Origin: a virus | Lineage: Duplodnaviria; Caudoviricetes | Virus record (IMG/VR): IMGVR_UViG_3300025451_000027 | Span: 1 to 40,024 of that record | Direction: 5' to 3' (one strand) | Length of the DNA: 40,024 nucleotides | Part shown: in pieces, positions 1 to 27,936 of the stretch | How the letters are laid out: each line of letters opens with the position of its first letter | Position numbering within the stretch: position 1 is the stretch's first letter | Notes under the pieces: model-generated | Database searches by the model: none | What the model was told of the DNA's origin: nothing | The model's input: the letters and a program-made list of their open reading frames with translations, nothing else | Position numbers and translations under genes: made by a program

Positions 1-248
1 TGCAGATCACGCTGGCGCTGAAGCGCGGCGCCAGAGGCGCGATGCTGATCGTGCCCGACGTCACCACCAAGGTGCCCGAGCCCAAGCTCGAAGCGACGAT
101 GTTGTGGGCCACGGTGGAAGGCAACCTGACGCCCGACAACCCGAAGCAGCAGAAGCTGGACCTGCGCCAGGTCGACCCCGACACCGGCGAGCTGCGCAGC
201 CTGGGCAGCGCCCCGGCCGCACCGGCTGAACTTCGCACGGCGGGCTGA
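1..248 (+). CDS. Phage hypothetical protein, 5'-truncated by window edge
   Basis: ORF ending ...GNLTPDNPKQQKLDLRQV..., resembles the small gene usually found upstream of DUF2303. Confidence 0.55.
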   Translation, partial: QITLALKRGARGAMLIVPDVTTKVPEPKLEATMLWATVEGNLTPDNPKQQKLDLRQVDPDTGELRSLGSAPAAPAELRTAG

Positions 249-249
249 C

Positions 250-1167
250 ATGGCCTCGTCGTTCGGCACCCCCCAACCCCAACAGCCCGCAGCGGCCAAG
301 CCCATCATCATGGAAACCAAAAACATTGCCGAGACGTTGGCTGACGTGCTGCCCAAGGTCAGCATCATCGGCGGCATCGATCCGACCACCGCCTTGCAAG
401 TGACGCTGGCCGCCGTGCCCAAGGGCCACGAGCTGCGCGAGGTGGACCTGGAGCGCCTGCTGCCCGCGCCGCGCCGCGCGGTGCTGGGCGTCAGCCTGGC
501 GCAGCCCGAGAGCTTCATCGACTACCTGACCCGCCACGCCAGCCCGGCCACGGTGGTGTGGTGCGACTTCAACCCGCAGACGCACCAGCTGGCCTTCGAG
601 GCGGTGTTCGACGACCTGGGCGCCAAGCAGGTGCCCGGTTGGCGCGGCCACCGCGCGCGCTATGCGCCCGAGCACAGCGCCGAGTGGAAGGTTTGGACCC
701 GAGCCAACGGCATGGACAAGGCACAGGCGCAGCTGGACTTCGCGATGTTTCTGGAGCGCAACGAGAGCGACATCGCAGCGGTTGAAGGCATGCCGACCAG
801 CGCCCAGATGATGCAGATGGCCACGGCCTTCGAGGCCAACAGCGACAAGCGGGTGAAGAGCATCGTCAAGATCCAGGGCGGCGGCACGCGGCTGGACTTC
901 ATCGACGACAACAACGCCGAGACCGAAGCGAACATGAAGCTGTTCGAGAAGTTCGCGATCGGCGTGCCGGTGTTCTGGGCCGGCCCGAGCTACCGCGTGG
1001 ATGCCAGGCTGCGCTACCGCCACGCCAGCGGCAAGGTGGCGTTCTGGTACGAGCTGATCCGCGCCGATCGGGTGCATGAAGCCGCGGCCAAGGAACTGAT
1101 CGAGAAGATCCGCACCGGACTGCCCGAGGGCGTGCCGCTGCTGATGGGCACCACCGCCAAGGCCTGA
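250..1167 (+). CDS. DUF2303 (YfdQ-like) phage protein
   Basis: Motifs SFIDYL, WRGHRARY, SAEWKVW, QLDFAMFLE, ARLRYR, FWYEL. Confidence 0.8.
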   Translation: MASSFGTPQPQQPAAAKPIIMETKNIAETLADVLPKVSIIGGIDPTTALQVTLAAVPKGHELREVDLERLLPAPRRAVLGVSLAQPESFIDYLTRHASPATVVWCDFNPQTHQLAFEAVFDDLGAKQVPGWRGHRARYAPEHSAEWKVWTRANGMDKAQAQLDFAMFLERNESDIAAVEGMPTSAQMMQMATAFEANSDKRVKSIVKIQGGGTRLDFIDDNNAETEANMKLFEKFAIGVPVFWAGPSYRVDARLRYRHASGKVAFWYELIRADRVHEAAAKELIEKIRTGLPEGVPLLMGTTAKA

Positions 1168-1176
1168 GCGACCGCC

Positions 1177-1422
1177 ATGCGCACCGAGACGATCACCTGG
1201 AATGAATTGCCGGCCGACGGCGTGCCGGATGCCGACACGACTGTGCTGGTTGCGTTCAAGTTCAACGACGAGCCGGCCGTCGACACATCCGCCATCGACA
1301 CCTGGCCAGCTTGGTGGAGCGGCGAGCACTGGATGGACGCTGCTACGGGTGATCGCATGGAGCGCTGGGGCGACTGCAAGGTGGTGGCCTGGGCTGACAT
1401 GCCGGCGGGTGGCGCGGCATGA
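1177..1422 (+). CDS. Phage hypothetical protein (DUF551-like, W-rich)
   Basis: 81 aa, TW..LP...PD..VLV ... VVAWADMP pattern; coupled to the next gene. Confidence 0.6.
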   Translation: MRTETITWNELPADGVPDADTTVLVAFKFNDEPAVDTSAIDTWPAWWSGEHWMDAATGDRMERWGDCKVVAWADMPAGGAA

Positions 1423-2333
1423 TCGCCATCGACCTGTTTGCCGGTGCCGGCGGTTTCAGCACCGGCGCCGCCTCAGCGGGCTGCACGGTGGCTTGGGCCG
1501 CCAACCACTGGCCCGCCGCGGTGGAATGGCACAGCGCAAACCACCCGACCACGCTGCATGCCTGCCAGGATCTGCAACAGGCCGACTTCACGGATGCGCC
1601 GCAGCACGATCTGCTGCTGGCCTCGCCGGCCTGCCAGGGCCACAGCCGCGCCCGCGGCGCCGAGCGCGCGCACCATGACGGTCAGCGCGCGACAGCCTGG
1701 GCAGTGATCACCTGCGCCGAGGTGCACCGGCCTGCTTTCGCGCTGGTCGAGAACGTGCCCGAGTTCGCCGCGTGGGCGCTCTACCCGGCGTGGTGCGCAG
1801 CGTGGCGCGCGCTGGGCTATGCCCTGGCGCCGCAGATCATCGACGCCGCCGACCATGGTGTGCCGCAGAACCGGCGGCGCCTGTTCATCGTGGCCAGCAG
1901 AAGCAAGCACCCGGCGGCGCTGGATCTGCAGCCGCGCGAGCACCGGCCAGCGGCCGAGGTGATCGACTTCAACGCCGGCCGGTGGTCGATGGTAGACAAG
2001 CCCGGCCGCAGCGCCCGCACCCTGTCTCGCGTGGCCGCCGGCCGGCGCCAACACGGCGCGCGCTTCGTAGCGCCCTACTACGGCAGCGGCAGCGGCGAGA
2101 CCGGCCGCAGCCTGGCCCGGCCGCTGGGCACGATCACCACGCGCGACCGCTGGGCCGTGATCGACGGCGACCGGTTGCGCATGCTGTCGGCCGACGAGTG
2201 CCGGGCGGCGATGGGCTTCCCGGCCGGCTACAGGCTGCCCGCGCAGCATCACCAGGCCGTGCATCTGCTTGGCAATGCGGTTTGCCCACCGGTGGCCGCC
2301 GACATCATCAACGCGCTGAGGGCTGCAGCATGA
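1419..2333 (+). CDS. DNA cytosine-5 methyltransferase
   Basis: Motif I DLFAGAGG, motif IV ASPACQGHS, motif VI ENV, motif VIII PQNRRRLF, motif X GNAV. Confidence 0.9.
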   Translation: MIAIDLFAGAGGFSTGAASAGCTVAWAANHWPAAVEWHSANHPTTLHACQDLQQADFTDAPQHDLLLASPACQGHSRARGAERAHHDGQRATAWAVITCAEVHRPAFALVENVPEFAAWALYPAWCAAWRALGYALAPQIIDAADHGVPQNRRRLFIVASRSKHPAALDLQPREHRPAAEVIDFNAGRWSMVDKPGRSARTLSRVAAGRRQHGARFVAPYYGSGSGETGRSLARPLGTITTRDRWAVIDGDRLRMLSADECRAAMGFPAGYRLPAQHHQAVHLLGNAVCPPVAADIINALRAAA

Positions 2334-2776
2334 GCCGCCACCGCAAGGCTCAGCCCGAGCTGCGCCCGGTCTACGCGCAGCCCAAGCTAGACCGGCGCGA
2401 CCGTGCCGCGGCGCGGGCCTTTCGCGAAGCCGCCTTCACCGGCGCCCGCCACCGCCCCGCGCCCGGCGACTTCGACCCGCTGCATCTGCGCCAGGGCATG
2501 CGTGCAAACGAGGTGCAGCAGCGCGCCGGCTGGGTGGTCAGCAATCCGCTGCTCGATCAGACCCTGGTGCGCAATCCAGGCCTTGACGCGAGCCTGCCAG
2601 GCTATGGCTGGCTGCGCATGGTCTACCGCTCGCGCTTCTGCGACCTGGTGTGCTTGCCGGGAACGCTGGCCGCGATCGAAAAGCAGGTTCCGGCCGAGAG
2701 GTCGGCCGCGATGCCTGCGCCTGCTGCGAGTGCAGTGACCGCAGTCGAGGTTGATCAGATGGAGATGTTTGCATGA
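2330..2776 (+). CDS. Hypothetical protein
   Basis: ATGA overlap with the MTase stop; MSRHRKAQ...QMEMFA. Confidence 0.55.
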   Translation: MSRHRKAQPELRPVYAQPKLDRRDRAAARAFREAAFTGARHRPAPGDFDPLHLRQGMRANEVQQRAGWVVSNPLLDQTLVRNPGLDASLPGYGWLRMVYRSRFCDLVCLPGTLAAIEKQVPAERSAAMPAPAASAVTAVEVDQMEMFA

Positions 2777-2828
2777 GCACCGGCCACATCACCTACCCAG
2801 CAGGATCCCTGGTGCGCGCGTCGGAGAT
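2773..2828 (+). pseudogene. N-terminus of an ORF (MSTGHITYPAGSLVRASEI) interrupted by the junction
   Basis: ATGA-coupled start at 2773; the sequence switches to the attC body at 2829. Confidence 0.45.
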
Positions 2829-2883
2829 CGTTGCCGGTAACCGGCTTGCCGAAGGCAAGTCCGGGTTGACCGGCCTGTTGGGC
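2829..2883 (-). other. attC A2, copy truncated at the crossover point
   Basis: Same as 39862-39916 but the CCATAA part is replaced by GGAGAT. Confidence 0.8.
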
Positions 2884-2991
2884 GGCCCTACCCGAAGCGA
2901 AAAGGACTGAGCATGAAGGACGAACTGCTGGTGCGTGCTGCACAGGCCAACGGCCACGCCTACCCGTGGACGATGCCGAACGGCTTTGGCG
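2829..2991 (+). repeat. Direct repeat copy 1 (163 bp; copy 2 at 39862-40024)
   Basis: Identical except G2864 vs A39897. Confidence 0.95.
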
Positions 2992-3272
2992 AGCGGCCGT
3001 GGAACCCGCTGACCAACAACGAGGACGCCTTGGTGCTGGCGGTGCGCATCGGGCTGCAGGTGACCGCGTACCCGATGTATGACGAGCCGAAGCATTCGGT
3101 GATCGTGCGCAAGCCGGTATGGGACCACGATGCGCAGGAAGGCGATGGCGTGGAAGTTGTCGAGCCCTACGGCACCGATGCGCTGGCGGCCACGCGCCGC
3201 GCCATCACGATGTGTGCTGCTGAGCTGGCACGCCGCAAGACGCCCAACGTCAATGGTGAGGCGACCACGTAG
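2913..3272 (+). CDS. Cassette gene, phage hypothetical protein
   Basis: WNPL....DAL.LAV.. and ATRRAI..AAE motifs common in phage accessory proteins; reads into the attC (NVNGEATT). Confidence 0.75.
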   Translation: MKDELLVRAAQANGHAYPWTMPNGFGERPWNPLTNNEDALVLAVRIGLQVTAYPMYDEPKHSVIVRKPVWDHDAQEGDGVEVVEPYGTDALAATRRAITMCAAELARRKTPNVNGEATT

Positions 3273-3343
3273 GCGCGCGCCGAGTTGTCCGGAAATCCCG
3301 GACGACTCACGCCGGAGTGGGTCGCCTCGACCTGGAGTTGGGC
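3242..3343 (-). other. attC A3 (102 bp, same as B2)
   Basis: GCCCAAC...GTTGGGC; stem GGTGAGGCGACC/GGTCGCCTCGACC with extra base; nested hairpin in the loop. Confidence 0.85.
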
Positions 3344-3367
3344 TGGTTCCGAAGCGAAGGAAAGACG

Positions 3368-3598
3368 ATGAGCGACTTTTACAACCCGCACGAAGACCGC
3401 ACGGCGCGCAAGGCTCACCGCTGCACCTACTGCGCCGAGCAGATTGCGGTTTGCGAACACTATGTGCACCAGACCGGCGTGTATGACGGCAAGTGGTACA
3501 CGAACAAGATGCACCCGGAGTGCTTCAAAGAGCTGTGCGACGAGGGAGAAGGTGAATTCACACCGTACAGCAACGAGCGGCCGAAGGCCGACGCCTAA
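3368..3598 (+). CDS. Cassette gene, small Cys/His (Zn-binding) protein
   Basis: ARKAHRCTYC...HPEC motif; stop TAA is part of GCCTAAC. Confidence 0.75.
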   Translation: MSDFYNPHEDRTARKAHRCTYCAEQIAVCEHYVHQTGVYDGKWYTNKMHPECFKELCDEGEGEFTPYSNERPKADA

Positions 3599-3694
3599 CG
3601 CTAGGTTAACCGGCCCGAAACGGCCCGAACAGGAGTATGCAAATGGAACAGACTAGCCCGGCCGTTTTGGGTCCGGTTGAACCGACAGTTATGC
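3593..3694 (-). other. attC A4 (102 bp; RBS and ATG of the next gene in its loop)
   Basis: GCCTAAC-6nt-GTTAACCGGCCC...GGGTCCGGTTGAAC-5nt-GTTATGC. Confidence 0.8.
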
Positions 3695-3993
3695 AGCACA
3701 CGCCGGGGCCGTGGAAGGCTAGTGTTTGCAACTCTGAGCGCTACAGCTACACCGTGGACGCGGCCGGGCCGTGGCCTTACAACCATGTTGCGCTGATACC
3801 TGAAATGTACGGGCCGCACTGCCTGACGCCTGGCGCACATGCTGCCAACGTGCGCTTGATCGAGGCCGCCCCTGACTTGCTGGCTGCGTGCCTGGCCCTG
3901 AAGGTCGCTGGCCCGCTTGGGCAGCGCGAATGGAACGCCGCTGCGGACATGATGGACGCGGCGATTGCCAAGGCTGTTGCAGGTGCTGCATAA
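3637..3993 (+). CDS. Cassette gene, phage hypothetical (HTPGPW...ANARLIAAAPDLL type)
   Basis: HTPGPW and ANVRLIEAAPDLL motifs; AGGAG RBS inside the attC. Confidence 0.75.
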   Translation: MQMEQTSPAVLGPVEPTVMQHTPGPWKASVCNSERYSYTVDAAGPWPYNHVALIPEMYGPHCLTPGAHAANVRLIEAAPDLLAACLALKVAGPLGQREWNAAADMMDAAIAKAVAGAA

Positions 3994-4047
3994 CCAATAA
4001 GTTAACCGGCGCCCGAATGGGCGTCCGAGTTGAACTGGCGGTTAGGC
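3988..4047 (-). other. attC A5 (60 bp, same as B6)
   Basis: GCATAAC CAATAA GTTAACCGGCGCCCGAATGGGCGTCCGAGTTGAAC TGGCG GTTAGGC. Confidence 0.9.
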
Positions 4048-4075
4048 GTGTGGGTGAGAAACAAGGAGAACGACG

Positions 4076-4321
4076 ATGGAAAAGTTTGAAGCGCTGAAGA
4101 AGGCCAAGGCATCGGAGCGGCATTACCCGTCCGACTACTGGGGCAACAACGACCCACGCTGCCCGCACTGCGGCCAGGAGTGCAAGGTGGCCGACAACGA
4201 GTGGTGGGAGCTGTACGAAGAAGGCGAGCACGAGGTTTCGTGCCCGCACTGCGACGGCGATTTCAGCGTGAGCACGAGGGTTAGCTACAGCTTTAGCACC
4301 GATGAGCAAGAAGACGCCTAA
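4076..4321 (+). CDS. Cassette gene, zinc-ribbon protein
   Basis: Two CPHC motifs; AAGGAG RBS; stop in GCCTAAC. Confidence 0.75.
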   Translation: MEKFEALKKAKASERHYPSDYWGNNDPRCPHCGQECKVADNEWWELYEEGEHEVSCPHCDGDFSVSTRVSYSFSTDEQEDA

Positions 4322-4388
4322 CGTTCGAGCTAACCGGACCGTGGAGGCCGAAGGCCGGAACGGGTCCGAGTTGAGCGAGTAGTTAGCC
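4316..4388 (-). other. attC A6 (73 bp)
   Basis: On the minus strand GGCTAAC TACTC GCTCAACTCGGAC...GTCCGGTTAGC TCGAAC GTTAGGC. Confidence 0.9.
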
Positions 4389-4416
4389 CGCCGCAACGAG
4401 AAGCGAGAGGACAGTG

Positions 4417-4851
4417 ATGAGCAAGGGATTCGCAGCGATTGCGCTGCACCAGCCGAAAGACCCGCTGAACGTGGGTGAGGTGCTGCGCGCTGCCGGGTGC
4501 TACGGCGCCGCGATGGTGGCCGCCAGTGGCGTGCGCTACCACCGCGCCCGTACCGACACGCAAGCGGCGCACCGACACCTGCCGCTGCTGACGTGCGACG
4601 ACTTGCGCGCCATGATCCCGCACGGGGCGGTTCCGGTGGCGGTTGACTTGATCGAAGGCGCGCAGGCCCTGCCTGGCTACAAGCACCCGCGCAGCGCGTT
4701 CTACGTGTTCGGACCCGAGGACGGCACGCTAGGACCCGAGGTGCTGGCCTGGTGCCGTGATGTGGTGTACGTGCCGACGCGCCACTGCATGAACTTGGCC
4801 GCCACGGTGAATGTGGTGCTTTACGACCGCGCCGCGAAACAAGCGGGCTAA
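4417..4851 (+). CDS. Cassette gene, SpoU/TrmH-family (SPOUT) RNA methyltransferase
   Basis: PKDPLNVGEVLRAAGCYG, YVFGPEDGTL, YVPTRHCMNLAATVNVVLYDR. Confidence 0.85.
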   Translation: MSKGFAAIALHQPKDPLNVGEVLRAAGCYGAAMVAASGVRYHRARTDTQAAHRHLPLLTCDDLRAMIPHGAVPVAVDLIEGAQALPGYKHPRSAFYVFGPEDGTLGPEVLAWCRDVVYVPTRHCMNLAATVNVVLYDRAAKQAG

Positions 4852-4947
4852 CGTCGAAGGTAACGCGCCTGGCGCGGCGCAAAAGACGCCAAATGAATAA
4901 CGGAAGCTCGCTCGCCGCGACAGGTCGCGTTGACCGCAGCTTTGCCG
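4846..4947 (-). other. attC A7, degenerate (R'' box damaged)
   Basis: GGCTAAC-6nt-GGTAACGCGCCTG...CAGGTCGCGTTGACC-5nt-TTTGCCG instead of GTTRRRY. Confidence 0.6.
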
Positions 4948-5160
4948 TTGCATGGCGGCCCGAGCCTGCTGCGATGGCATTACGACGATGACCGCAAGCC
5001 GACCAGCGTGCAGATCGGCGCGGACTACAACCACCTGCACGACACGCACTTCAGCAGCTACGCCACCGCCGATGACGCTTACGAGGTATTTGCTGACGCC
5101 GAGCGACTGTTTAACCACCTGGCAGAGATGGTGGCTACGGAGGCTGTTGGTGCTGCCTAA
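4930..5160 (+). pseudogene. Cassette gene, probably 5'-truncated
   Basis: No good start or RBS; stop TAA in GCCTAAC. Confidence 0.45.
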
Positions 5161-5177
5161 CGTGCTTTAGACAACAT
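5155..5177 (-). other. Putative attI-like entry site of array A
   Basis: Minus strand ...TGTCTAAAGCAC/GTTAGGC: core site with no palindromic partner, at the array boundary. Confidence 0.45.
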
Positions 5178-5210
5178 CAGAAGACTTTAAGCAATGCACA
5201 AGGGCAACCC

Positions 5211-5441
5211 ATGAACACCGACGAATTCGAGGAACGCATGACGCGCCTTGTCATTGCCCCAAAGGGTGAGCCGATCTTTAGCGAGCAGGCGACAACCGTT
5301 GAAATAGACGACGAGTCAGGCGGCGAGTTCGTCGTGATTTCCCAGCATCTTGGCGATTACGGGAAGATCGCCATTGGTCCGACCGAGTGGCCCGCGATCC
5401 GCGCTGCCGTGGAAAAGATGATTGGACTTTGCCGTTCGTGA
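5211..5441 (+). CDS. Phage hypothetical protein
   Basis: 76 aa, PKGEPIFSE..T.VEI.DE.GGEFV motif. Confidence 0.65.
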   Translation: MNTDEFEERMTRLVIAPKGEPIFSEQATTVEIDDESGGEFVVISQHLGDYGKIAIGPTEWPAIRAAVEKMIGLCRS

Positions 5442-5459
5442 GAAAGACTAGGTGATCGA

Positions 5460-5684
5460 ATGACAGAAACCAGAACCATCACATTCCGCGTGTTCAGGAG
5501 CCCCAGCGGCGAACCTACATGCTGCGCCGATGCACTGACGGGCGCTCACTGCAAGTTTCTTGGCGCCAAAGAATTTGGCCTCGTTCCGGTCTGCATGGCA
5601 GTCGGTGAAGATTTGTACCGTACTAGCGATGCTGGGTGGCTTGTTCCGCACGATGACTGCCCGATGTGGGCTGGACGGCCATGA
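5460..5684 (+). CDS. Cys-rich hypothetical protein
   Basis: ATG start, ATGA-coupled to the next gene. Confidence 0.5.
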   Translation: MTETRTITFRVFRSPSGEPTCCADALTGAHCKFLGAKEFGLVPVCMAVGEDLYRTSDAGWLVPHDDCPMWAGRP

Positions 5685-5977
5685 GCATCAACCGCTACGC
5701 CGCGCGCACTGACGCTAACAAAGCCGCCATCGTTGCTGCCTTCATTGATGAGGGCTGCAGCGTGTACGACCTTCGCCAGCCGGTGGATTTGCTGGTGGGC
5801 ATCAATTTGATGACTATGCTCGTTGAGTGCAAGGATGGATCGAAGCCGCCCAGCGCAAGAAAGCACACCCCAGCTCAAGCCAAGTTCATGAGCACCTGGC
5901 GCGGCGGCCCTGTGGCAACCGTGACCGATGTTGAAGGCGCCCGGAGAGTGGCGCGAATGATGAAAGGACACGAATGA
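5681..5977 (+). CDS. PD-(D/E)XK / VRR-NUC-like nuclease
   Basis: DAN..IV ... PVDLLVG ... LVECKDG ... TPAQAKF..W pattern. Confidence 0.7.
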   Translation: MSINRYAARTDANKAAIVAAFIDEGCSVYDLRQPVDLLVGINLMTMLVECKDGSKPPSARKHTPAQAKFMSTWRGGPVATVTDVEGARRVARMMKGHE

Positions 5978-6378
5978 GCAAAGCACCGCCAGACTTCAGC
6001 TACATCAAGCCCGAGCACCGCGCCATTGATGGCCGTCTAGTCAATTGGGCCAGGTGCGTCAGGACTTATCCACTTTCTCGCACTCACCCAATGTTCAGCC
6101 AATACCGAAGCTCTGAGCGATGGGACGAGTTGAGCGCGTCAATCCCAGCGGATCAGGTGGACGGGCTGGTGATCGAGCGGGCAGTGGCGCAGATCGACAA
6201 CGACCCGCGCGAGGCGCTGAGGTGGTTCTATGTCTACGGTGGTTCGCCCAACAAGGCCGCAAAGTACATCAAGTGCAGCGCTCACGGCCTGGCCGAGCTT
6301 CTGCACCAAGGCCGCGATCTGTTGCAAAAGCGCACTAGCTCACGCAATGAGCTTGCACTAGCTCACAACATGAGCTAG
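5974..6378 (+). CDS. Putative late-gene antiterminator/activator (Q-like)
   Basis: RL.NWARC N-terminus, C-terminal sigma4-like HTH; sits directly before a promoter-terminator and the terminase genes. Confidence 0.6.
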   Translation: MSKAPPDFSYIKPEHRAIDGRLVNWARCVRTYPLSRTHPMFSQYRSSERWDELSASIPADQVDGLVIERAVAQIDNDPREALRWFYVYGGSPNKAAKYIKCSAHGLAELLHQGRDLLQKRTSSRNELALAHNMS

Positions 6379-6381
6379 TAT
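6332..6381 (+). promoter_or_regulatory. Putative late promoter with two palindromic boxes
   Basis: TTGCAC(6353)-17nt-TAGTAT(6376); two AGCTCA-N5-TGAGCT palindromes. Confidence 0.55.
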
Positions 6382-6452
6382 CCCGCCCATACCGATAGCG
6401 AAGACGCGCCCGGACCGCCACAAGGGGATAACTGCCCCAGGCGAACGCACAC

Positions 6453-6476
6453 AGCCACCCATGCGGTGGCTTTTTT
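6453..6476 (+). terminator. Intrinsic terminator (tR'-like)
   Basis: AGCCACC-CATGC-GGTGGCT followed by a T run. Confidence 0.7.
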
Positions 6477-6514
6477 CATTGGAGCCAGCGACCCGGAAAC
6501 GGACTGGTTAGACG

Positions 6515-6931
6515 ATGTACAGCCAAGCAATAGCCGATCAGGTGTGCGAGCTGCTGGCAGATGGCTTGAGTCTGCGCAAAGCAGCAGAGCGATCCGGCAC
6601 AACGCATTCCGTGATCTTGGGATGGGTGAAGGACAACAAAGCCTTTTCCGACCAATACACCCGCGCGCGTGAGATCGGCTACCAGCTCTTGGCTGACGAG
6701 ATAATCGAGATCAGCGACGACAGCAGGGGCGATACCTGGGTAGATGACGACGGCAACGAGCGCACTGATACAGAGCGGGTTGCCAGGTCAAAGCTTCGGA
6801 TGGATTCGCGCAAGTGGATGCTTTCCAAGATGCTGCCGAAGCTGTATGGCGACAAGGTTGTGCATCAAGGCGATCCGGACGCGCCAGTTGTCCACAGGAT
6901 TGAGCTAGTTGACCTCGACAGCGAGGATTAA
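6515..6931 (+). CDS. terS: Terminase small subunit (Sf6-like)
   Basis: YS..IAD.VCE.LADG.SLR, QY.RARE, LADEIIEISD, RSKLR.D.RKW.LSK..PK.YGDK. Confidence 0.9.
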   Translation: MYSQAIADQVCELLADGLSLRKAAERSGTTHSVILGWVKDNKAFSDQYTRAREIGYQLLADEIIEISDDSRGDTWVDDDGNERTDTERVARSKLRMDSRKWMLSKMLPKLYGDKVVHQGDPDAPVVHRIELVDLDSED

Positions 6932-8216
6932 GCTCCCGAAGGTTCTGCGGCCTGTATTTGCTGGGCGCGCAGACGTTCGCGGCGCCTATGGTGGGCGAGG
7001 GTCTGCAAAGACTCGCTCATTCGCCAAGATGATTGCCGTGCGCGGGTACATGTACGGCATGTCTGGCGTTACGGGGCAGCTAGTCTGCGGCCGGCAGTTC
7101 ATGAACTCGCTAGAGGATTCCTCGCTAGAGGAGTGCAAGCGGGCGATTGAGGACGAGCCATTCCTCGCGGATTACTACGAGGTTGGTGACAAGTACATCA
7201 AGAGCAAAGACGGGCGTATCTGGTTTACGTTCGTCGGCCTTGACCGAAGCATTGCGTCCATCAAGTCGAAGGGCCGCATCCTCATCTTGTGGGTTGATGA
7301 GGCCGAGCCGGTCACTGATGAGGCATGGAATGTCGTAATCCCGACTCTGCGTGAGGAGGGAGAAGACTGGAATGCTGAGCTTTGGGTGACATGGAACCCG
7401 AAGCGCAAGACGGCGGCAGTTGAAAGCCGCTTCAGGAATTCGAGTGATCCGCTCATCAAGGTTGTGCAATGCAACTGGAAAGACAACCCGAAGTTCCCGG
7501 AGAAGTTGGAGCGTGAACGGCTGCGTGACCTGGCAGAACGGCCAGACCAGTACGCGCATATCTGGGAAGGCGATTACATCAGCGTTATCTCTGGCGCCTA
7601 CTTCGCGGCGGCGATCACTTCCGCAAAGGCTGAGGGCCGGATTGGCAAGGTAGCCGCTGACCCGCTGATGACGCTACGCGCGTTCTTTGACATCGGCGGG
7701 ACCGGCGCAAAAGCTGATGCTGTTGCTATCTGGATAGCCCAGTTCATCGGGCGCGAGATTCGAGTGCTGGACTACTACGAAGCTGTTGGACAGCCGCTGG
7801 CGACCCACATCAACTGGCTACGGGCCAGCGGGTACGAGAAGGCCGGCGTTTGGCTTCCGCACGATGGGGACACGCAAGACAAGGTTCACGACGTGAGCTA
7901 TGCAAGTGCTCTGCGTGATGCTGGCTTTGCTGTCACAGTGATTCCGAACCAAGGCAAGGGCGCTGCGATGGCTCGCATTGAGGAAGCCCGCAGGCTGTTC
8001 CCAAGCATGTGGTTCAACGAGGAAAAGTGCCAGCCTGGCCTAGATGCGCTTGGCTGGTATCACGAGAAGCGGGACGAGAAGCGCGGGATTGGCCTCGGAC
8101 CAGAACACGATTGGGCAAGCCACGGGGCAGACGCCTTTGGCTTGATGTGCGTGGCTCATCAGCCGCCGATGATGAAGCAAGCACCTTTGAACTACCAAAA
8201 CAGGCGAACCGCATGA
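6909..8216 (+). CDS. terL: Terminase large subunit (PBSX/Terminase_3 type)
   Basis: Walker A YGGRGSAKT, Walker B WVDEAE, TWNP, C-terminal HDWASHGADAF nuclease motif. Confidence 0.93.
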   Translation: MTSTARIKLPKVLRPVFAGRADVRGAYGGRGSAKTRSFAKMIAVRGYMYGMSGVTGQLVCGRQFMNSLEDSSLEECKRAIEDEPFLADYYEVGDKYIKSKDGRIWFTFVGLDRSIASIKSKGRILILWVDEAEPVTDEAWNVVIPTLREEGEDWNAELWVTWNPKRKTAAVESRFRNSSDPLIKVVQCNWKDNPKFPEKLERERLRDLAERPDQYAHIWEGDYISVISGAYFAAAITSAKAEGRIGKVAADPLMTLRAFFDIGGTGAKADAVAIWIAQFIGREIRVLDYYEAVGQPLATHINWLRASGYEKAGVWLPHDGDTQDKVHDVSYASALRDAGFAVTVIPNQGKGAAMARIEEARRLFPSMWFNEEKCQPGLDALGWYHEKRDEKRGIGLGPEHDWASHGADAFGLMCVAHQPPMMKQAPLNYQNRRTA

Positions 8217-10381
8217 AGAAGATGGACGATGACGAGCTGCTGCGCTTCCTAGAAGCTGAGCACGACTCCGCCTATCACTATTCAAGTTCGCAGATCGCCA
8301 AAGAGCGCGAACGGGCCATCCGCGATTACAACCGGATGCCCTACGGGACCGAGGTTGAGGGGCGCTCTAAGGTCATCACGTCGGATGTGTTTGATGCTGT
8401 TGAGGGAATGCTTCCTGATCTGCTCGATGTGTTCATCAGCAGTGACAAGGCGGTTGTCTTCGATCCTGTCGGACCTGAGGATGTGGAAGCGGCGGAGGAA
8501 GTCACCAACGCCTGCAACCATGTCTTCTACAAGCAGAACAACGGGTTCTTGACGCTCTACACCGCAGCCAAGGACGGCCTGACGCTCAAAACGGGCGGCA
8601 TCAAGTGGTGGTGGGATGTCAAGCGCACGCCGAAGTGGGAGACGTTCCGGGGCGTCTCTGAAATGCAGTTGGCGGTGTACCTGTCAACGCACCCGAAAGC
8701 CGAGCTGATCTCGAAAGAGGAAGACAACGGCGAGGATGAAGCGCAGGGTGAGCGCGAGGTAGAGGCGGAACAGGGCGCGCAGGAGACCGATGCGGAGTTT
8801 GGCGAGCAGACCCCGCCGAAGCTGTGGACTGTTCGCATCAAGACGATTGAGGATCGCGGCATCGTCAAGGTTGCGCCGATCCCGCCCGATGAATTGCTGA
8901 TCAGCAAGAACCACAATTCAATCCTGCTGGATGACTGCGCCTATGTCGCGCACATCACTCAAAAGAGCCTGAGCGACATCCATCAACTCGGCTATGAGGA
9001 TGTGACGATTGATGATGTCCGCGCGGCCAGCAATGAGCGCAAGACCCAAGACGGCTACTTGCGGGACATGTTCCTCGACCGCGACCGCTTCGACGGTCAG
9101 ACGGTAGACGATTCGTCTGTTCGTGGCTGGCTGATCGAAGAATACGTGCTTGTTGATTTCGACGGCGACGGCATCACAGAGCGCCGCAAGATCACGCGCC
9201 TAGGGAAGCTGATCCTAGACAATGAGGAAGTGAGCCATGTGCCGATTGCGGCATGGACGCCCTACATCCTAACGCACCAGTTCAACGGCTTGTCTGTTGC
9301 ACAACTGGTGTCTGACTTCCAGCGCATCAGCACCGATATTTGGCGCGCGCAGCTCGATAACCTTGACCTGGCGAACAACCAAGAGACTGTTGTTCTGACC
9401 GACTCGCAGGGCAACCCGCAAGCCAACATTGACGATCTGTTGAATCGTCGGCCTGGCGGTGTGCTGCGTGAGAACGTGGCGGGCGCGATCAGGCCCTATG
9501 CGCAGCGCTGGCAGGGCATTGAAGCAATGCCGATGGTTGAGATGCTGAACAGCGCCAAGGAGAACCGCACCGGGTGGACGCGCTACAGCCAGGGCCTTGA
9601 CGCCGATTCGCTGAACAAGACGCGCGGCGGTATGCAGATGATCATGAACGCCAGCCAGAAGCGCATGAAGCTGATGGCCCGCATCATGGCTGAGTGTCTT
9701 GTCGCGCCGATGTTCCGTGGCATCTTCAAGACGCTGCAGGACTACTGCATGGAGAAGCTGACATTCAAGCTCTCCAACAAGTTCGTAGCCTATGAGCCGC
9801 AGAACTGGCGCGACGGCTTCGATATGATGATCAATGTCGGCCTGGGGACTGGCGACGTGATCCAGCAGGCTGGCTATCTGCAGCAGATCGCGCAAGCGCA
9901 GTTCGCATTGATGGGCACCCCGATGGGTGGGCGTGTGGTGACTGAGGCCAATGTGTTCGCGGTGCAATCTCGCATCGCAGAAAACGCTGGCTTCAAGAAC
10001 CCGGCCGAGTTCTGGACCGACCCGAAGCAATTGCCGCCACCTCAGCCGCCACAGGCCCCGCCTGACCCGCGCGTGATCACGAAACAGATGGAACTTCAGG
10101 CCGACGCGCAGAAGTTCCAAGCCACGCAACAGGCCGATCAAGCCAAGTTCCAAGCCGAGCTGCAATCGCAAATGCAGATTGACCAGAACCGGCAGGAGTG
10201 GGAGGCCAGGCAGAAGCAGTTGGAGCTTGAACAGCAGGCCCAGCTTGAACAACTCCGCGCGCATTACGAGATGCAGAAGGAAGCCGCACGCCTTGAGTTC
10301 GACCGATACAAGGCCGACCTTGATGCGAACGTGAAGCTGACGATTGCACAGCAGCGGGCCATCCCGCAGCCGATGCTATGA
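8213..10381 (+). CDS. Portal protein (P22-like, long C-terminal coiled coil)
   Basis: Follows terL; about 722 aa from ATG 8213; GRSKVITSDVFDAVE; Q-rich C-terminal barrel. Confidence 0.85.
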   Translation: MKKMDDDELLRFLEAEHDSAYHYSSSQIAKERERAIRDYNRMPYGTEVEGRSKVITSDVFDAVEGMLPDLLDVFISSDKAVVFDPVGPEDVEAAEEVTNACNHVFYKQNNGFLTLYTAAKDGLTLKTGGIKWWWDVKRTPKWETFRGVSEMQLAVYLSTHPKAELISKEEDNGEDEAQGEREVEAEQGAQETDAEFGEQTPPKLWTVRIKTIEDRGIVKVAPIPPDELLISKNHNSILLDDCAYVAHITQKSLSDIHQLGYEDVTIDDVRAASNERKTQDGYLRDMFLDRDRFDGQTVDDSSVRGWLIEEYVLVDFDGDGITERRKITRLGKLILDNEEVSHVPIAAWTPYILTHQFNGLSVAQLVSDFQRISTDIWRAQLDNLDLANNQETVVLTDSQGNPQANIDDLLNRRPGGVLRENVAGAIRPYAQRWQGIEAMPMVEMLNSAKENRTGWTRYSQGLDADSLNKTRGGMQMIMNASQKRMKLMARIMAECLVAPMFRGIFKTLQDYCMEKLTFKLSNKFVAYEPQNWRDGFDMMINVGLGTGDVIQQAGYLQQIAQAQFALMGTPMGGRVVTEANVFAVQSRIAENAGFKNPAEFWTDPKQLPPPQPPQAPPDPRVITKQMELQADAQKFQATQQADQAKFQAELQSQMQIDQNRQEWEARQKQLELEQQAQLEQLRAHYEMQKEAARLEFDRYKADLDANVKLTIAQQRAIPQPML

Positions 10382-10662
10382 CGCCCATCGAAGAACAGAC
10401 CCGGGGTCAGCGCGCATCTGAGCTGCTGGATAACGAGCTTCTGCAAGAGACGCTAGACGCCATCCGCGCTGAAGTGATCAAGCAGTGGAGCGAGTGCCCT
10501 GCCCGTGATGCACAGGGCAAAGAGGCGCTTTGGCAGCTCCACAAGATGGCGGAGAAGTTCGAGAACATCCTCAAGGGCTACGTGCAAACTGGAGTCCTTG
10601 CGAGTGAGAACCTGAAGCGATACGAAGAACAGTCGAAGCTGTACCGGATGTTCAGAAGCTGA
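10378..10662 (+). CDS. Conserved small head-region protein
   Basis: 94 aa between portal and scaffold. Confidence 0.7.
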   Translation: MTPIEEQTRGQRASELLDNELLQETLDAIRAEVIKQWSECPARDAQGKEALWQLHKMAEKFENILKGYVQTGVLASENLKRYEEQSKLYRMFRS

Positions 10663-10682
10663 ATTCGGCACGGCCGATATGC

Positions 10683-10706
10683 AGGCGCCCTAGAGGCGCC
10701 TTTTTT
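10683..10706 (+). terminator. Intrinsic terminator
   Basis: AGGCGCC-CTAGA-GGCGCCT followed by a T run. Confidence 0.65.
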
Positions 10707-10736
10707 GTGCCCGAAAGGGTGATCAAGTGAGGTGTT

Positions 10737-11657
10737 ATGGACATCGAACCGCAAAGCGGAATGTCTGATCTGTTGGCGGCGCTCGGAGACGAGCCCAAAG
10801 CCGAAGTGGTTGACGAAACCACCCCTGAACCCGACGAGGGCGAGCAGGAGCAGGCCGAAGGCGTTGAAGACGAAGCCGAACAACCGCAAGAAGAAGCGCA
10901 GCCCGATCTGATTGATCTGGACGGAAAGAAGCTGGAAATCCCCGAGGGGACGCCTCCGGAGCTTGTCAAGACAGTTCAAAAGATGGCCGCCGACCTGAAA
11001 GCGGACTACACCCGAAAGACGCAGGCCGCAGCGGATGCTGAAAAGCACATCCAAGCGACTGTGCAATCCCTCGAACATCGGCAGAAGCTGATGGGCGAGA
11101 CGGCAGAAACCTGGGCAGACCTTCGGGACGCTCAGAAGCGAGTTGAACAACTCAAGGCCGTCGATTGGACTGCGCTGGCCGACCAAGACCCGGCCCAAGC
11201 AACGAGGTTGATGGTGATGTACCAAACCGCGCAAGCGGAAGTGCAAACCAAGGGCTTCGCCTGGCAGCAGTCGTTGAACCAGTTGAACCAAGTGACCGAA
11301 CAGCAGCGCGCACAAAGCACGGCCGCCCAATGGGAAAAGGCCGCGACTGAGGCGCGTAAAGCACTCGGGCCGCAGTTCAGCGAGAAAGCAAACATAGCCG
11401 CTCAGAAGTGGATTCAAAAGAAGGCCGGAACGTCGGACATGGGGGCCATTGTTGGCCGCTTCGCTGACCCGGTAGTCCTTGAAGCCATCGTGAAGGCGGC
11501 GCAATGGGACGCCGCGAACGGCAAGCCCATGCAAAAGGTTAGCGAAGCGAAACCCACGGTCAAACCGTCCGCTCCGCAACCGAAACGTGAAAACAAGTCG
11601 GCGCTTGAACGGTTGAAGACAACCGGACGCGCTGAACACCTCATCAATTTTCTGTAA
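10737..11657 (+). CDS. Scaffolding protein
   Basis: Acidic N-terminus, ADYTRKTQ motif, coiled coil; directly before the capsid gene. Confidence 0.8.
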   Translation: MDIEPQSGMSDLLAALGDEPKAEVVDETTPEPDEGEQEQAEGVEDEAEQPQEEAQPDLIDLDGKKLEIPEGTPPELVKTVQKMAADLKADYTRKTQAAADAEKHIQATVQSLEHRQKLMGETAETWADLRDAQKRVEQLKAVDWTALADQDPAQATRLMVMYQTAQAEVQTKGFAWQQSLNQLNQVTEQQRAQSTAAQWEKAATEARKALGPQFSEKANIAAQKWIQKKAGTSDMGAIVGRFADPVVLEAIVKAAQWDAANGKPMQKVSEAKPTVKPSAPQPKRENKSALERLKTTGRAEHLINFL

Positions 11658-11669
11658 GGCAGAACCGAA

Positions 11670-12650
11670 ATGGCACAACCAACCAATACCTACGATTCCT
11701 ATGACGTGAACGGCAACCGTGAAGACCTGCAAGACAAGGTCTACATGGTTTCGCCTGAGAAGGTCCCTGTCTCGTCGGCCGGCCGACGCTTCACCGCAAA
11801 AGCCAAGTTCCACGAATGGCAGCGCGACAACTTGGCGACCCCGAACAAGGACAACGCAGTCATCGAAGGTGACGACCGCTCCGGCACCGCGTTGGTTGCT
11901 ACCAACCGCGTCGGCAACTACGCGCAGTTGTTCGACAAGGTGGCCGTGGTGACGACCTCGCAGCGCGCCACCAAGTCGGCCGGCCGCTCGGACGAGATGC
12001 GCTACCAGATCGCCATGAAGGTAATCCCCGAGCTGAAGCGCGACGTGGAGGCCATGCTTGTTTCCAACAACGTGGCGGTGGCTGGCAACAGCACCACGGC
12101 GCGCAAGTCGGCTGGCATGGGCGCGTTCATCTACACCAACACCTCGCACGGCGGCGCTGGCGCTACGGCTGCGCACACCTCGGGCGCTCCGACCACGGCC
12201 CTGACGGCCGGCACCAACCGCGCATTCACTGAGGCGCTGTTGAAGACCGTGCTGCAGGCCATCGCCACGAACAGCGGTGAACAACCCAGCCTGTTGTCGG
12301 TCACCCCATCGCACAAGGGCACGTTCTCCGGCTTCTTGGGCATCGCGGCTAACCGGTTCCAGACCTCGCTGTCTGCGAAGCAGCAAAACCGCATCGTTGG
12401 CGGCGCTGACGTGTACATGGGTGACTTCGGCGAACTGACTGTGGTGCCCAACTACGTGCAGGCCACGGCCAACAGCGATACCGCGCTGATCCTTAACCCG
12501 GATCACTACGGCCTGGCGTACTTCCAGAACTGGAAGACCGATCCGCTGGCCAAGACCGGCCACACCGACAAGGAAATGGTCTCCTGCGAGGTGCTGACCG
12601 TTGTCACCAGCGAGATGGCACAGGGCAAGGTCGCCAACCTGAATCCGTAA
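11670..12650 (+). CDS. Major capsid protein (DUF5309/SU10-like)
   Basis: GNREDL, HEWQ.D.L, NAVIEGDD, KRDVE, DVY.GDFG, LAKTG motifs. Confidence 0.85.
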   Translation: MAQPTNTYDSYDVNGNREDLQDKVYMVSPEKVPVSSAGRRFTAKAKFHEWQRDNLATPNKDNAVIEGDDRSGTALVATNRVGNYAQLFDKVAVVTTSQRATKSAGRSDEMRYQIAMKVIPELKRDVEAMLVSNNVAVAGNSTTARKSAGMGAFIYTNTSHGGAGATAAHTSGAPTTALTAGTNRAFTEALLKTVLQAIATNSGEQPSLLSVTPSHKGTFSGFLGIAANRFQTSLSAKQQNRIVGGADVYMGDFGELTVVPNYVQATANSDTALILNPDHYGLAYFQNWKTDPLAKTGHTDKEMVSCEVLTVVTSEMAQGKVANLNP

Positions 12651-12670
12651 GCCAACCAACCGTGAGGGGG

Positions 12671-12690
12671 GGGGCTTCGGCCCCTTTTTT
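12671..12690 (+). terminator. Intrinsic terminator after the capsid gene
   Basis: GGGGC-TTCG-GCCCC followed by TTTTTT. Confidence 0.8.
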
Positions 12691-12694
12691 ACGA

Positions 12695-13000
12695 ATGGAC
12701 GAAGTTTTCAAGATCCAGGATTACGACCCGCAACTGGGCATCGCCACGACGGTGCACCGCGTTGAGGGCAAAGCAGTCATCCAGAAGACCTATGACGCTG
12801 AGCCGTTCATTGAAGCCGCGAAGTCGATGCGTCATGCGTCTAGCGGCGAACGTTGGGGCGAGCTGCGGCACGTTGGGTTCATCCCGCCCGCCGAGCTGGG
12901 CAAGATGATGCGGCAAGACGGTGGACTGGATCGAAAGCGGCTGACTGCGTGGCTAAAGGCCAATCCTGCGCTGGTGACGTTTGACAGGCTGCTCAAATGA
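12695..13000 (+). CDS. Virion-region hypothetical protein
   Basis: ATG 12695, coupled to the next gene. Confidence 0.65.
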   Translation: MDEVFKIQDYDPQLGIATTVHRVEGKAVIQKTYDAEPFIEAAKSMRHASSGERWGELRHVGFIPPAELGKMMRQDGGLDRKRLTAWLKANPALVTFDRLLK

Positions 13001-13584
13001 GCTATTCCCAGCTTACGACCGATGTCGCTTCATGGCTGCATCGCGCTGACATCACGCAGGCCAACTTCTCGCGGTTTACTGCGATGGCTGAAGCTCGCAT
13101 GGCTCGGTTACTCCGCGTGCGTCAGATGGAAGCGCCGCTTGTCTCGACTGAGATTGACGCGGACTATGAGATTGCGCTACCTGCCGACTTCGTGGCAACA
13201 AAGGTGCTGTACTCGGTCGGATATGAGCGCACTCCGCTGACGGCTCAAACGCTGGACTACATCACGTCGCGCGGGGTCGTCTACGGCATCCCAAAGAACT
13301 TCGCAGTCACTGCTGATGCTTGGCGATTTGACGGGACTGGTTCTGTCGCTGGAACGTATTACCAAGCACTCCCGAGCCTTGAGACTGACGGCACGACCTG
13401 GCTAGAGACTCTTGCGCCTGATTTGTACCTGTTCTCCGTGCTTGCCGAAGCGTGCATGTTCGTTCAGGACTCAGAGCGTGCCGCGCTGTATTCAGGTCGT
13501 GCGCGTGAGTTGCTGCAAGAGGTCAACGCCAACGACCAGCGAGACCGCTTTAGCGGCCTGCTTGTTTCTTCCAAGAGGCTCTGA
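12997..13584 (+). CDS. Head-tail adaptor protein
   Basis: Y..L...VA.WL.R.D, AEAR..R.LRVRQM, LP.DF, WL...APDLYL. Confidence 0.75.
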   Translation: MSYSQLTTDVASWLHRADITQANFSRFTAMAEARMARLLRVRQMEAPLVSTEIDADYEIALPADFVATKVLYSVGYERTPLTAQTLDYITSRGVVYGIPKNFAVTADAWRFDGTGSVAGTYYQALPSLETDGTTWLETLAPDLYLFSVLAEACMFVQDSERAALYSGRARELLQEVNANDQRDRFSGLLVSSKRL

Positions 13585-13874
13585 TGCTCACCTACAAAGA
13601 ACGATACGACCTCATCAGTGACGCTGTATTTCAGCAGCGCATTCAATATGCGGCCTGGGTCACTGCGCTCGCGTTCGCCAATGAAGTGCCAGGCACTGGG
13701 AAGCGCAGGCAGTGGGCAAAGGCTGCTCTCCAAGGCGCTCTTGACACTGATGTCATGCGGCGCTTTGCAATCCAGGTCAGCGCAAACCAGAACGTTGGCG
13801 CCGCTGGCAAGAATGCCCTAGATAGTGACATCCAGGCGGCCGTTGACGCTGTAGCTTCGGACGTTGCCGGATGA
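13584..13874 (+). CDS. Hypothetical virion-region protein
   Basis: TGATG coupling; ends DSDIQAAVD. Confidence 0.6.
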   Translation: MLTYKERYDLISDAVFQQRIQYAAWVTALAFANEVPGTGKRRQWAKAALQGALDTDVMRRFAIQVSANQNVGAAGKNALDSDIQAAVDAVASDVAG

Positions 13875-15346: not shown

Positions 15347-15731
15347 CGTAACCCCTGACCCGCGTCTTCCGCTGAACATTGACAACTTGTTTCGGCTGAA
15401 GTTAGCAGACTACCTCAGTGAGTTCGCGCGTTCGATCAATCAGGCGGCGAATTTGGTGCTGTGGAAGACGGTGGCGGTATCCACTGCTTATACGGCAGGC
15501 GTCAACGATCACATCATCCGCTGCACTAGCGGGCCGTACACGGTGACGATCCCGAGCGCGTCAAGCATGAACGGGAAGCGCATCGTAATCAAGCGGGCTG
15601 ATTCAGGTACTTCGACGCTCACCATCTCAAGCGCATCAGGAAACATCGACGGCGCTGGCTCAACTTCACTGACAACCGCTTGGCAATCGCGCGAGTTGTT
15701 TAGTGATGGCACTCAATGGCTTCTGGTCTAG
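15339..15731 (+). CDS. Small tail/decoration protein
   Basis: TVTIP.A....GK.I.IK...IDGA....SDGTQW fold typical of virion appendages. Confidence 0.6.
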   Translation: MNSVTPDPRLPLNIDNLFRLKLADYLSEFARSINQAANLVLWKTVAVSTAYTAGVNDHIIRCTSGPYTVTIPSASSMNGKRIVIKRADSGTSTLTISSASGNIDGAGSTSLTTAWQSRELFSDGTQWLLV

Positions 15732-15739
15732 GAAATTAC

Positions 15740-16948: not shown

Positions 16949-16949
16949 C

Positions 16950-18047: not shown

Positions 18048-18048
18048 G

Positions 18049-19251: not shown

Positions 19252-19260
19252 GGGGATGTG

Positions 19261-20394: not shown

Positions 20395-20401
20395 GAATCA
20401 A

Positions 20402-22198: not shown

Positions 22199-22315
22199 GG
22201 TGATCCGGCTTTGAATGAAGTTCTCAAGCACCTTCACCCCAAGCCAAAACAGCGGCCCGATAACGCCGACAACCAACGCAATTCCCAGGGCTTTGCCCCA
22301 ATCCGCAAGTTCCAT
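22160..22315 (-). CDS. Small antisense membrane protein (51 aa; not in the ORF track)
   Basis: MELADWGKALGIALVVGVIGPLFWLGVKVLENFIQSRITLLRQRWRSRHTQ, translated by hand. Confidence 0.45.
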   Translation of the reverse strand: MELADWGKALGIALVVGVIGPLFWLGVKVLENFIQSRITLLRQRWRSRHTQ

Positions 22316-22332
22316 CCCGAAAGGATACCCGA

Positions 22333-22479
22333 ATGCTCACAGCCGCACTAGGCGCATTAGGCGCAGCCGTTCTACACCGCGTGCTTCTGAAGTCGAAGAA
22401 CGCCACTGTTACCAAGATTCGCTCCATCGTTTACGGCGTTGACGCGGGCGGCGGCGGTGGGCCGAAAGAGCCGGTTTAA
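22333..22479 (+). CDS. Small protein (48 aa) ending GGGGGPKEPV
   Basis: AAGGA RBS, ATG 22333; translated by hand. Confidence 0.5.
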   Translation: MLTAALGALGAAVLHRVLLKSKNATVTKIRSIVYGVDAGGGGGPKEPV

Positions 22480-22834: not shown

Positions 22835-22851
22835 ACAAGGTAACAGGCAAA

Positions 22852-23157: not shown

Positions 23158-23185
23158 AGCGCGTCTGTGAGTGGAAGGGTTGAGC

Positions 23186-24138: not shown

Positions 24139-24312
24139 TGGTAAAGCCGCGCGTCATCCACCTTGGCCGCATAGTCGGGAGACTAGGAGGCCGAGAGGTG
24201 AATATTGACAACGGGATGGTGATCGACCTAGACTCGCCGAAAGCTCTGGACGAAGCGCGGTCCCCAGAAATTCCCCAAATCTAGCTAATGGCCTTTGTGT
24301 CTATGTAGTCCA

Positions 24313-25069: not shown

Positions 25070-25099
25070 TCCTTGTCCTTTCTGTTGCATCTATCACCA

Positions 25100-25423: not shown

Positions 25424-25522
25424 GAGTCCTCCAATCGCCCGGCTGCGCCAGGCTTCAATGCACACGCTCAGCGCTGCGCGCTCAGCTTCCAGTTTTCTCA
25501 GCTTGGCCACGCCCCGGACACA

Positions 25523-27921: not shown

Positions 27922-27936
27922 GTAACACCAAAACGC

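What the first reader, a model, noticed from the sequence alone, without database searches (positions are those of the whole stretch)
2773..2883. Junction falls exactly on the IntI crossover point, joined to a GWTMW secondary site
Seen: on the minus strand the intact site reads ...GGCAACG|TTATGGC (39862) and the left copy reads ...GGCAACG|ATCTCCG (2829). Homology stops precisely at the G|TT position. The partner G|ATCT fits GWTMW and interrupts an ORF starting at 2773. Established: IntI1 can recombine attC with secondary GWTMW/GWT (attG) sites. Inference: a real integrase-mediated insertion of this cassette (or of the whole phage) into a second phage. The contig may then have been joined through the shared cassette; the G2864/A39897 difference suggests two distinct copies.
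Basis: partly seen in the sequence, partly recalled or inferred. Interest (0 to 1): 0.82.

Follow-up and report, generated by a model that had tools for sequence, protein, structure and literature searches.

The report
Integron cassette caught splitting phage gene
A small mobile gene cassette interrupts a phage's AlpA gene (a likely excisionase) at the exact base where integron integrases cut, likely placed there by the host's integrase; the unbroken gene exists in other water samples, and the rest of this 40-kb contig is likely a second phage joined on by the assembler.

Summary
Confirmed and extended. The 163-nt repeat (2829-2991 = 39862-40024, one mismatch) starts at the canonical bottom-strand R' crossover of a real attC; the partner reads G|ATCT. 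Runs from two other studies and protein P0034 hold the empty allele. It is identical up to 2829, then continues as a 77-aa AlpA-family helix-turn-helix gene, so breakpoint and GWTMW target are shown, with one shared base. The junction recurs in a second assembly (L004) and in run X1.

The contig is likely a chimera: segment A (69% GC, depth about 6-7 in X1) plus a 37,033-bp circular phage B (59% GC, depth 40-49), joined through a shared 419-bp cassette. B has 17 attC sites, reversed relative to its genes, attI-like array ends and no integrase. Integron integrases are common in the likely host family (80 of 201 genomes).

Best reading: host IntI inserted a phage-type cassette at a secondary (attG) site of a temperate phage. 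The right junction was not found, so whole-phage integration is disfavoured but not excluded. The chemistry is known; I found no natural phage before/after pair in print, but this scan has logged several.

The parts
1..2828 (+). Segment of phage A (recipient): end of an early operon of a high-GC, likely temperate phage (DUF2303 gene 250-1167, C5 DNA methylase 1419-2333, orphan ORF 2330-2776)
   Evidence: GC 69.4% versus at most 61.9% in any 2828-nt window of the rest; Pfam/PHROG; L004 extends it >5 kb to a repressor/cro-like pair
2773..2829 (+). Codons 1-19 of an AlpA-family HTH gene (likely excisionase), interrupted; as it stands it reads on through the attC to a stop at 2908-2910
   Evidence: P0034, 77 aa, first 19 aa identical; Pfam Phage_AlpA 24.2 bits, cut-off 21, residues 36-64
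2825..2829 (-). Secondary target core G|ATCT (GWTMW); crossover 2829/2828; the G (C2829 on +) is the only base shared by target and donor at the cut
   Evidence: Empty allele in X2 and X3 matches to 2829 and then diverges; donor copy at 39862
2829..2883 (+). Body of the incoming attC (bottom strand = +): L' 2835-2841, extrahelical T2860, unpaired 2864, L'' 2865-2872 with extrahelical G2868, R'' 2877-2883
2913..3272 (+). Cassette gene, 119 aa, unknown function (phrog_5086; weak lead to Phage_ABA_S/NinX-like proteins, score 0.87)
2829..3247 (+). Inferred mobile unit, 419 bp (attC body + leader + gene up to the next AA|C at 3247/3248)
   Evidence: In 6 of 6 viral loci the gene ends in the same AA|C, followed by 5 different sequences; unit length
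39856..39916 (+). Intact copy of the same attC in phage B, crossover AA|C at 39861/39862, A at 39897
39862..40024 (+). Second repeat copy; the last 127 nt are likely the assembly-graph overlap that closes phage B
   Evidence: k = 127 as an assembler setting is recalled
2829..39861 (.). Phage B: 37,033-bp likely circular genome (SU10-type portal and capsid, terminases, lysis and replication genes), 17 attC hairpins in two arrays, no tyrosine recombinase
   Evidence: depth 40-49 in X1
5155..5175 (+). Candidate attI-like docking site ending phage B's right array (AA|C at 5160/5161, no hairpin); a second candidate at about 24702 on the minus strand
   Evidence: 10 of 12 bases after the cut equal the site upstream of intI in L173

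Best explanation
An attC cassette interrupts phage A's alpA gene at the attC crossover base and a G|ATCT target; it was likely inserted by a host integron integrase, and the contig likely joins this phage to a second, circular phage B through the shared cassette. Shown: breakpoint, target core, empty allele, identity of the split gene, attC anatomy and strand. Inferred: (1) a cassette of the reversed phage type (attC bottom strand on the coding strand) was excised as a circle from a phage array in a cell whose chromosomal IntI was active; (2) IntI cut the folded attC at AA|C and the double-stranded alpA site at AT|C, needing only the one shared base; (3) the event is recent, since filled and empty alleles are identical over about 2.8 kb; (4) the assembler walked from A into B because both carry the cassette. 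If only the 419-bp unit went in, its gene would be fused in frame (codon 112) to AlpA residues 20-77, which hold the whole HTH match; otherwise alpA would be knocked out.
For: Empty allele in X2 and X3 diverging right after 2829; P0034. Junction in L004, 100% identical over 2987 nt including G2864. In X1 one unbranched contig crosses it at depth 5.8, next to 7.1 for the rest of A, with no empty-allele loose end. Only AT|C among blind-detected sites. 31 of 33 database proteins that read into this attC have N (AAC) at the crossover, with 33 different upstream ends. Bottom-strand R' is the IntI crossover (PMC2727003 passages). Only the first base of the triplet must match (PMC2811028 abstract). 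GWT/GWTMW targets. Chimera: GC step, depth step in X1, 127-nt tail, L004 ends 123 nt past the mismatch without joining B. Distinct copies: base 2864 is unpaired and both variants are common (13 G, 20 E). Enzyme supply: no integrase among 92 long frames of the window or in 5 related viral records; IntI over cut-off in 80 of 201 genomes of the family of G006; attC sites of the same build beside intI in 5 of 13 host loci, and an attI-like match.
Against: The right-hand junction was not found: no match in the window or viral contigs, no fusion protein. Window, L004 and X1 may be one sample, though X1 differs from the window at 3080 and at one base in 2135-2699. X1 crosses by only 28 nt. The hotspot motif CRGM at +6 to +9 is met at 3 of 4 positions only. 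Hairpin and gene are not rigidly coupled: 2 of 5 informative loci have another attC in front of the gene and 3 have none, and the same attC heads another gene in X1, X3 and X4. The host is only inferred (59% AlpA relative in a Burkholderiales genome; methylase and DUF2303 hits to Acidovorax, Ralstonia and Pseudomonas phages). An excisionase role is inferred: AlpA was found near the methylase in 1 of 73 related loci and an integrase in 7 of 73.
Confidence: 0.76

Rival explanations
1. Same site-specific insertion, but made by a non-IntI tyrosine recombinase (a Xer-like enzyme of another phage, or phage A's own integrase) acting on the attC hairpin.
For: No enzyme is in the contig. Two unchecked earlier notes of this scan report Xer-like recombinases beside reversed arrays. 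Phage A probably has an integrase downstream of alpA, not in hand.
Against: The sites have full IntI-type anatomy and one is 82% identical to aadA1-associated attC. Cut position and GWT target are those measured for IntI. 0 of 5 related viral records carry a tyrosine recombinase. IntI is common in the likely host family and sits beside like-built attC and attI-like sites. Other phage attC sites recombine with IntI1 (PMC9892861).
Confidence: 0.12
2. The whole circular phage B was integrated into alpA of phage or prophage A through its attC at 39862 (a co-integrate), or A-left/B-right is a true recombinant genome.
For: The contig has the lasso shape such a product would give. B lacks an integrase but has a cro-like gene. 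Depth 51 over 2961-3148 in X1 fits A plus B sharing this stretch. The right junction is unseen.
Against: The left copy has G2864 where B has A39897, and both are common natural variants. A is six- to seven-fold less deep than B in X1. L004 stops at the merge point. The cassette gene occurs in many unrelated phages.
Confidence: 0.08
3. The junction is an assembly or library chimera, or an illegitimate recombination that fell there by chance.
For: A is shallow (depth about 6), all filled copies may come from one sample, and the larger contig is itself a likely chimera.
Against: Three assemblies hold it; X1 shows no empty allele beside it; only one base is shared at the join; it falls on the cleavage base and on a motif found at 0.4-2.5% of positions. 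X1 holds a second, different AT|C junction of the same attC.
Confidence: 0.04

Closest known systems
attC x attG (secondary-site) insertion of integron cassettes; SALINs (Loot et al., bioRxiv 10.1101/2022.09.11.507474; passages and section 33 seen)
   Same: attC bottom strand cut at R', GWT core, insertion inside a coding sequence, no integrase nearby.
   Different: Shown there in bacterial chromosomes with laboratory donors. Here the target is a phage gene, the cassette is of the reversed phage type, and a natural empty allele is in hand. The hotspot motif CRGM is met at 3 of 4 positions.
Phage-borne CALINs (Qi et al. 2023, PMC9892861; parts 1-4 of 7 read, supplement not seen)
   Same: attC clusters without intI in phage genomes; 5 of 6 tested sites recombined with IntI1.
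   Different: The text read reports no natural insertion junction or empty allele, no attI-like ends in virulent phages, and no systematic reversal of genes against attC. It attributes acquisition possibly to illegitimate recombination.
Class 1 integron secondary sites GWTMW/GNT and off-target IntI1 events (PMC4618277, PMC10127599; passages seen)
   Same: G|AT cleavage at a non-att site.
   Different: Those concern plasmids and resistance cassettes.
AlpA excisionases (Shewanella CP4So, PMC5148205; abstract and section 23 seen)
   Same: The split gene passes the Pfam Phage_AlpA cut-off.
   Different: Its role in phage A is untested and the adjoining integrase was not recovered.

Membership tests
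attC site | R'-L'-L''-R'' inverted boxes folding into a hairpin | tested here: met
   (z -4.4 for the intact copy)
attC site | Extrahelical G and T on one strand, defining the bottom strand | tested here: met
   G2868 and T2860 on +; strand agrees with class 1 aadA1 cassettes
attC site | Recombined by IntI as a folded single strand | not testable with these tools
   Needs an in vivo assay
Secondary-site (attG) insertion | Crossover at G|TT of R' on the donor | tested here: met
Secondary-site (attG) insertion | Target core GWT (GWTMW) in the empty allele, not an attC or attI | tested here: met
   G|ATCT in X2, X3 and P0034; target is coding sequence
Secondary-site (attG) insertion | Hotspot motif CRGM at +6 to +9 | tested here: inconclusive
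   3 of 4 positions; not required outside hotspots; the left motif is in a supplementary figure I could not see
Secondary-site (attG) insertion | Clean reciprocal junction without target duplication or loss | tested here: inconclusive
Classical integron gene cassette | Gene on the top strand, followed by its attC | tested here: not met
   Annotated genes lie on the bottom strand with the hairpin in front; the longest ATG ORF is on that strand in 14 of 16 units listed
Complete integron | intI gene beside the array | tested here: not met
   0 of 92 frames of 130 aa or more
Phage CALIN | Two or more attC sites within a few kb, no intI | tested here: met
   Phage B: 17 hairpins in two arrays
AlpA family (PF05930) | Score above the Pfam gathering cut-off | tested here: met
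   P0034 24.2 versus 21 bits; no PHROG or PDB hit
AlpA family (PF05930) | Excisionase activity with a neighbouring integrase | not testable with these tools
   DNA downstream of the intact gene not obtained

The most novel reading that the evidence does not exclude
An integrase-less phage (B) integrates whole into another phage's alpA gene by lending one of its own attC sites to the host's integron integrase, so IntI acts as a borrowed phage integrase at GWT sites. A milder novel reading (about 0.35): host IntI trades reversed cassettes between unrelated phages and here builds an in-frame cassette-AlpA fusion that keeps the HTH.
Probability: 0.07. Interest if true: 0.8.

Novelty: new variant of a known kind. 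Interest (0 to 1): 0.5.

Why it matters
It is a base-exact natural before/after record of an attC cassette entering a phage gene at a secondary site. It suggests that phage attC arrays without an integrase are active, that phage mosaicism can arise by site-specific rather than illegitimate recombination, and that new arrays could be founded at GWT sites. It gives a ready substrate pair for testing which enzyme serves the reversed phage arrays. Practical point: shared cassettes glue unrelated phages together in assemblies, and this record, rated complete, is likely two genomes. The scan has logged several similar cases, so this one adds weight rather than a new kind.

Tried and rejected
Top-strand (R'') crossover: considered because stop codons sit in the left box; rejected by extrahelical bases and class 1 comparison. 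L005 is a chance 25-nt match in an unrelated gene. No relatives of ORF 2330 or P0034 in viral contigs; no left-flank match there; P0034 has no match in cultured phages or the PDB. The remainder of alpA was not found in the window or viral contigs. No longer relative of P0034 (71 candidates, weak evidence) and no near-identical fusion among the best 150 of 310 hits; P0038 is a 79% relative, not the other half. Of 71 matches to a 16-base attC motif only 4 had the strict second arm, 3 more by eye, all AA|C; the other 64 were not counted. X4 covers A only in short pieces and says nothing on the junction. The rest of L004's contig could not be fetched. Rfam finds only a tRNA. Alignment A1 held one wrongly chosen row and was not used. 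Two manually entered site coordinates were off by one or two bases (29809 and 24702 are right). Two papers gave nothing relevant (passages).

Full report
Observation. The window is a whole 40,024-base virus record. Positions 2829-2991 repeat at 39862-40024 with one mismatch (G2864/A39897); identity stops at once on the left, and exactly 127 identical bases run from the mismatch to the contig end. The intact copy folds as an attC (z -4.4). Its extrahelical G and T sit on the 3' arm of the + strand, so + is the bottom strand and the left box is R', where IntI exchanges strands (PMC2727003, passages). I checked the strand independently. A window attC read along the phage coding strand hit 1947 plasmid records, and in both records opened the aadA1 and neighbouring cassette genes lie on the opposite strand.

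More than chance. A detector that ignores the two bases 5' of the crossover C found 9 sites in the window and 30 distinct sites in 1.23 Mb of other loci, and none in 5 shuffles. All read AA|C except this junction, in the window and in L004. Of 33 database proteins that read into this same attC, 31 have N at the crossover, one D and one I (ours), with 33 different upstream ends. GWT makes up 2.1-2.5% and GWTMW 0.4-0.5% of positions per strand in phage A DNA.

Empty allele. I laid 4 of the 24 runs listed. In X2 (aquatic viral metagenome) and X3 (wastewater, another study) single contigs match the window to 2829 with no difference and go on with the same other letters. These encode P0034, a 77-aa protein whose first 19 residues equal ORF 2773 (3 cluster members, 6 contigs). 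P0034 passes the Pfam Phage_AlpA cut-off. Target core G|ATCT and breakpoint are thus shown. Donor and target share only the one base at the cut, which is all IntI1 needs (PMC2811028, abstract). GWT and GWTMW are the reported secondary-site cores. The hotspot motif CRGM is met at 3 of 4 positions, which is inconclusive. AlpA acts as an excisionase in Shewanella CP4So (PMC5148205, section 23). For phage A this is inference: an AlpA hit lay near the methylase in 1 of 73 related loci and an integrase in 7 of 73.

Filled allele. It is in the window, in L004 (a 12-kb contig of another assembly, identical over 2987 nt including G2864) and in X1. There one unbranched contig at depth 5.8 crosses by 28 nt, beside depth 7.1 for the rest of A, with no empty-allele branch. 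These may be one sample, although X1 differs from the window at 3080 and at one base in 2135-2699.

Chimera. Segment A has 69.4% GC, while no 2828-nt window of the rest exceeds 61.9%. In X1, A is at depth 5.8-7.1 and B at 40-49. L004 carries A more than 5 kb upstream to a repressor/cro-like pair and stops 123 nt past the mismatch without joining B. The window's 127-nt tail and L004's 123-nt end fit graph overlaps at common assembler k values (recalled, not from a call). B, 2829-39861, closes as a 37,033-bp circle with SU10-type portal and capsid, terminases, lysis and replication genes. Base 2864 is unpaired and both variants are common in nature (13 versus 20), so A's attC is likely a separate copy from B's.

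The mobile unit. The cassette gene's relatives end at the same AA|C (3247/3248) in 6 of 6 viral loci, followed by 5 different sequences, giving a 419-bp unit. Against a rigid unit: 2 of 5 informative loci have another hairpin in front, 3 have none, and the same hairpin heads another gene in X1, X3 and X4. Frame arithmetic: both crossovers fall before the third base of a codon, so a one-cassette insertion would fuse 112 cassette codons to AlpA residues 20-77, which hold the HTH match. No such protein and no right junction were found.

The enzyme. None of 92 long frames in the window and none of 5 related viral records carries a tyrosine recombinase. The nearest genomic AlpA relative (59%) is in a Burkholderiales genome that has an integron integrase, as do 80 of 201 sampled genomes of its family. 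Beside these intI genes, 5 of 13 loci show attC sites built like the phage ones. The non-hairpin AA|C site upstream of intI in L173 shares 10 of 12 bases with the end of B's right array at 5161; similar ends recur in other phage loci. B thus looks like an attI-plus-attC platform without intI that likely borrows the host enzyme, and the alpA insertion is an off-target event. Host and enzyme are both inferred.

Known work. Secondary-site insertion and SALINs: Loot et al. preprint (passages and section 33; supplements closed). Off-target events on plasmids: PMC10127599 (passages). Phage CALINs with IntI1-competent attC: PMC9892861 (parts 1-4 of 7; its supplement, unseen, may show gene orientation). 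Nine literature searches showed no natural before/after pair in a phage and no account of reversed phage arrays; most subscription papers are outside this library. Unchecked notes of this scan describe reversed arrays and off-array insertions in several other phages; these are not independent support, but they lower the rarity.

Verdict. A real, recent, site-specific cassette insertion at a secondary site in a phage alpA gene (junction itself about 0.95; with host IntI and cassette-only insertion 0.76), inside a likely chimeric contig. New variant of a known kind; interest 0.5.

Noticed in passing
window 5161 (+) and 24702 (-); L158:1140, L116:5550, L129:3627, L161:229: Both arrays of phage B end in an AA|C without a hairpin; two recurring sequence types are shared with unrelated phage loci, and one resembles the site upstream of intI in L173: candidate phage attI sites without intI.
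   Followed up: partly
run X1, record 4 (laid on window 2827-2856): A second AT|C junction of the same attC with a different 5' flank (depth 7.6): likely another secondary-site insertion.
   Followed up: no
P0005: A 225-aa protein reads into this attC with D instead of N at the crossover: possibly an insertion at a non-GWT site.
   Followed up: no
window 3239-3356 / 25510-25627 and 3988-4047 / 28298-28357: The two divergent arrays of phage B share near-identical attC sites (94% and 98%), possible substrates for inversion.
   Followed up: no
window 38739, 29777, 29363, 3637: Several cassette genes start inside long attC hairpins.
   Followed up: no
window 4414-4851: A SpoU-family RNA methylase is carried as a cassette; DNA methylases also sit in cassettes at 25594-26355 and 26612-27262.
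   Followed up: no
window 1-2828: Segment A is letter-identical in runs of 2017, 2021 and 2025 from different habitats (one difference in X1): a very clonal phage or a shared source.
   Followed up: no
window 3080: Synonymous T where all four runs and 6 of 6 loci have C: private variant or assembly error.
   Followed up: partly
window 32875-32945 (-) and 31046-31120: A tRNA and a 15-nt tandem repeat inside the HNH-bearing replication gene.
   Followed up: no
L017:8445 and L170 (about 3 kb upstream of intI): A lone attC in a prophage-type locus; a host attC with AG|C at the crossover.
   Followed up: no
L083:4559-9359: Integrase-alpA-replication gene order of a phage-satellite type in the Burkholderiales genome holding the nearest AlpA relative.
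   Followed up: no
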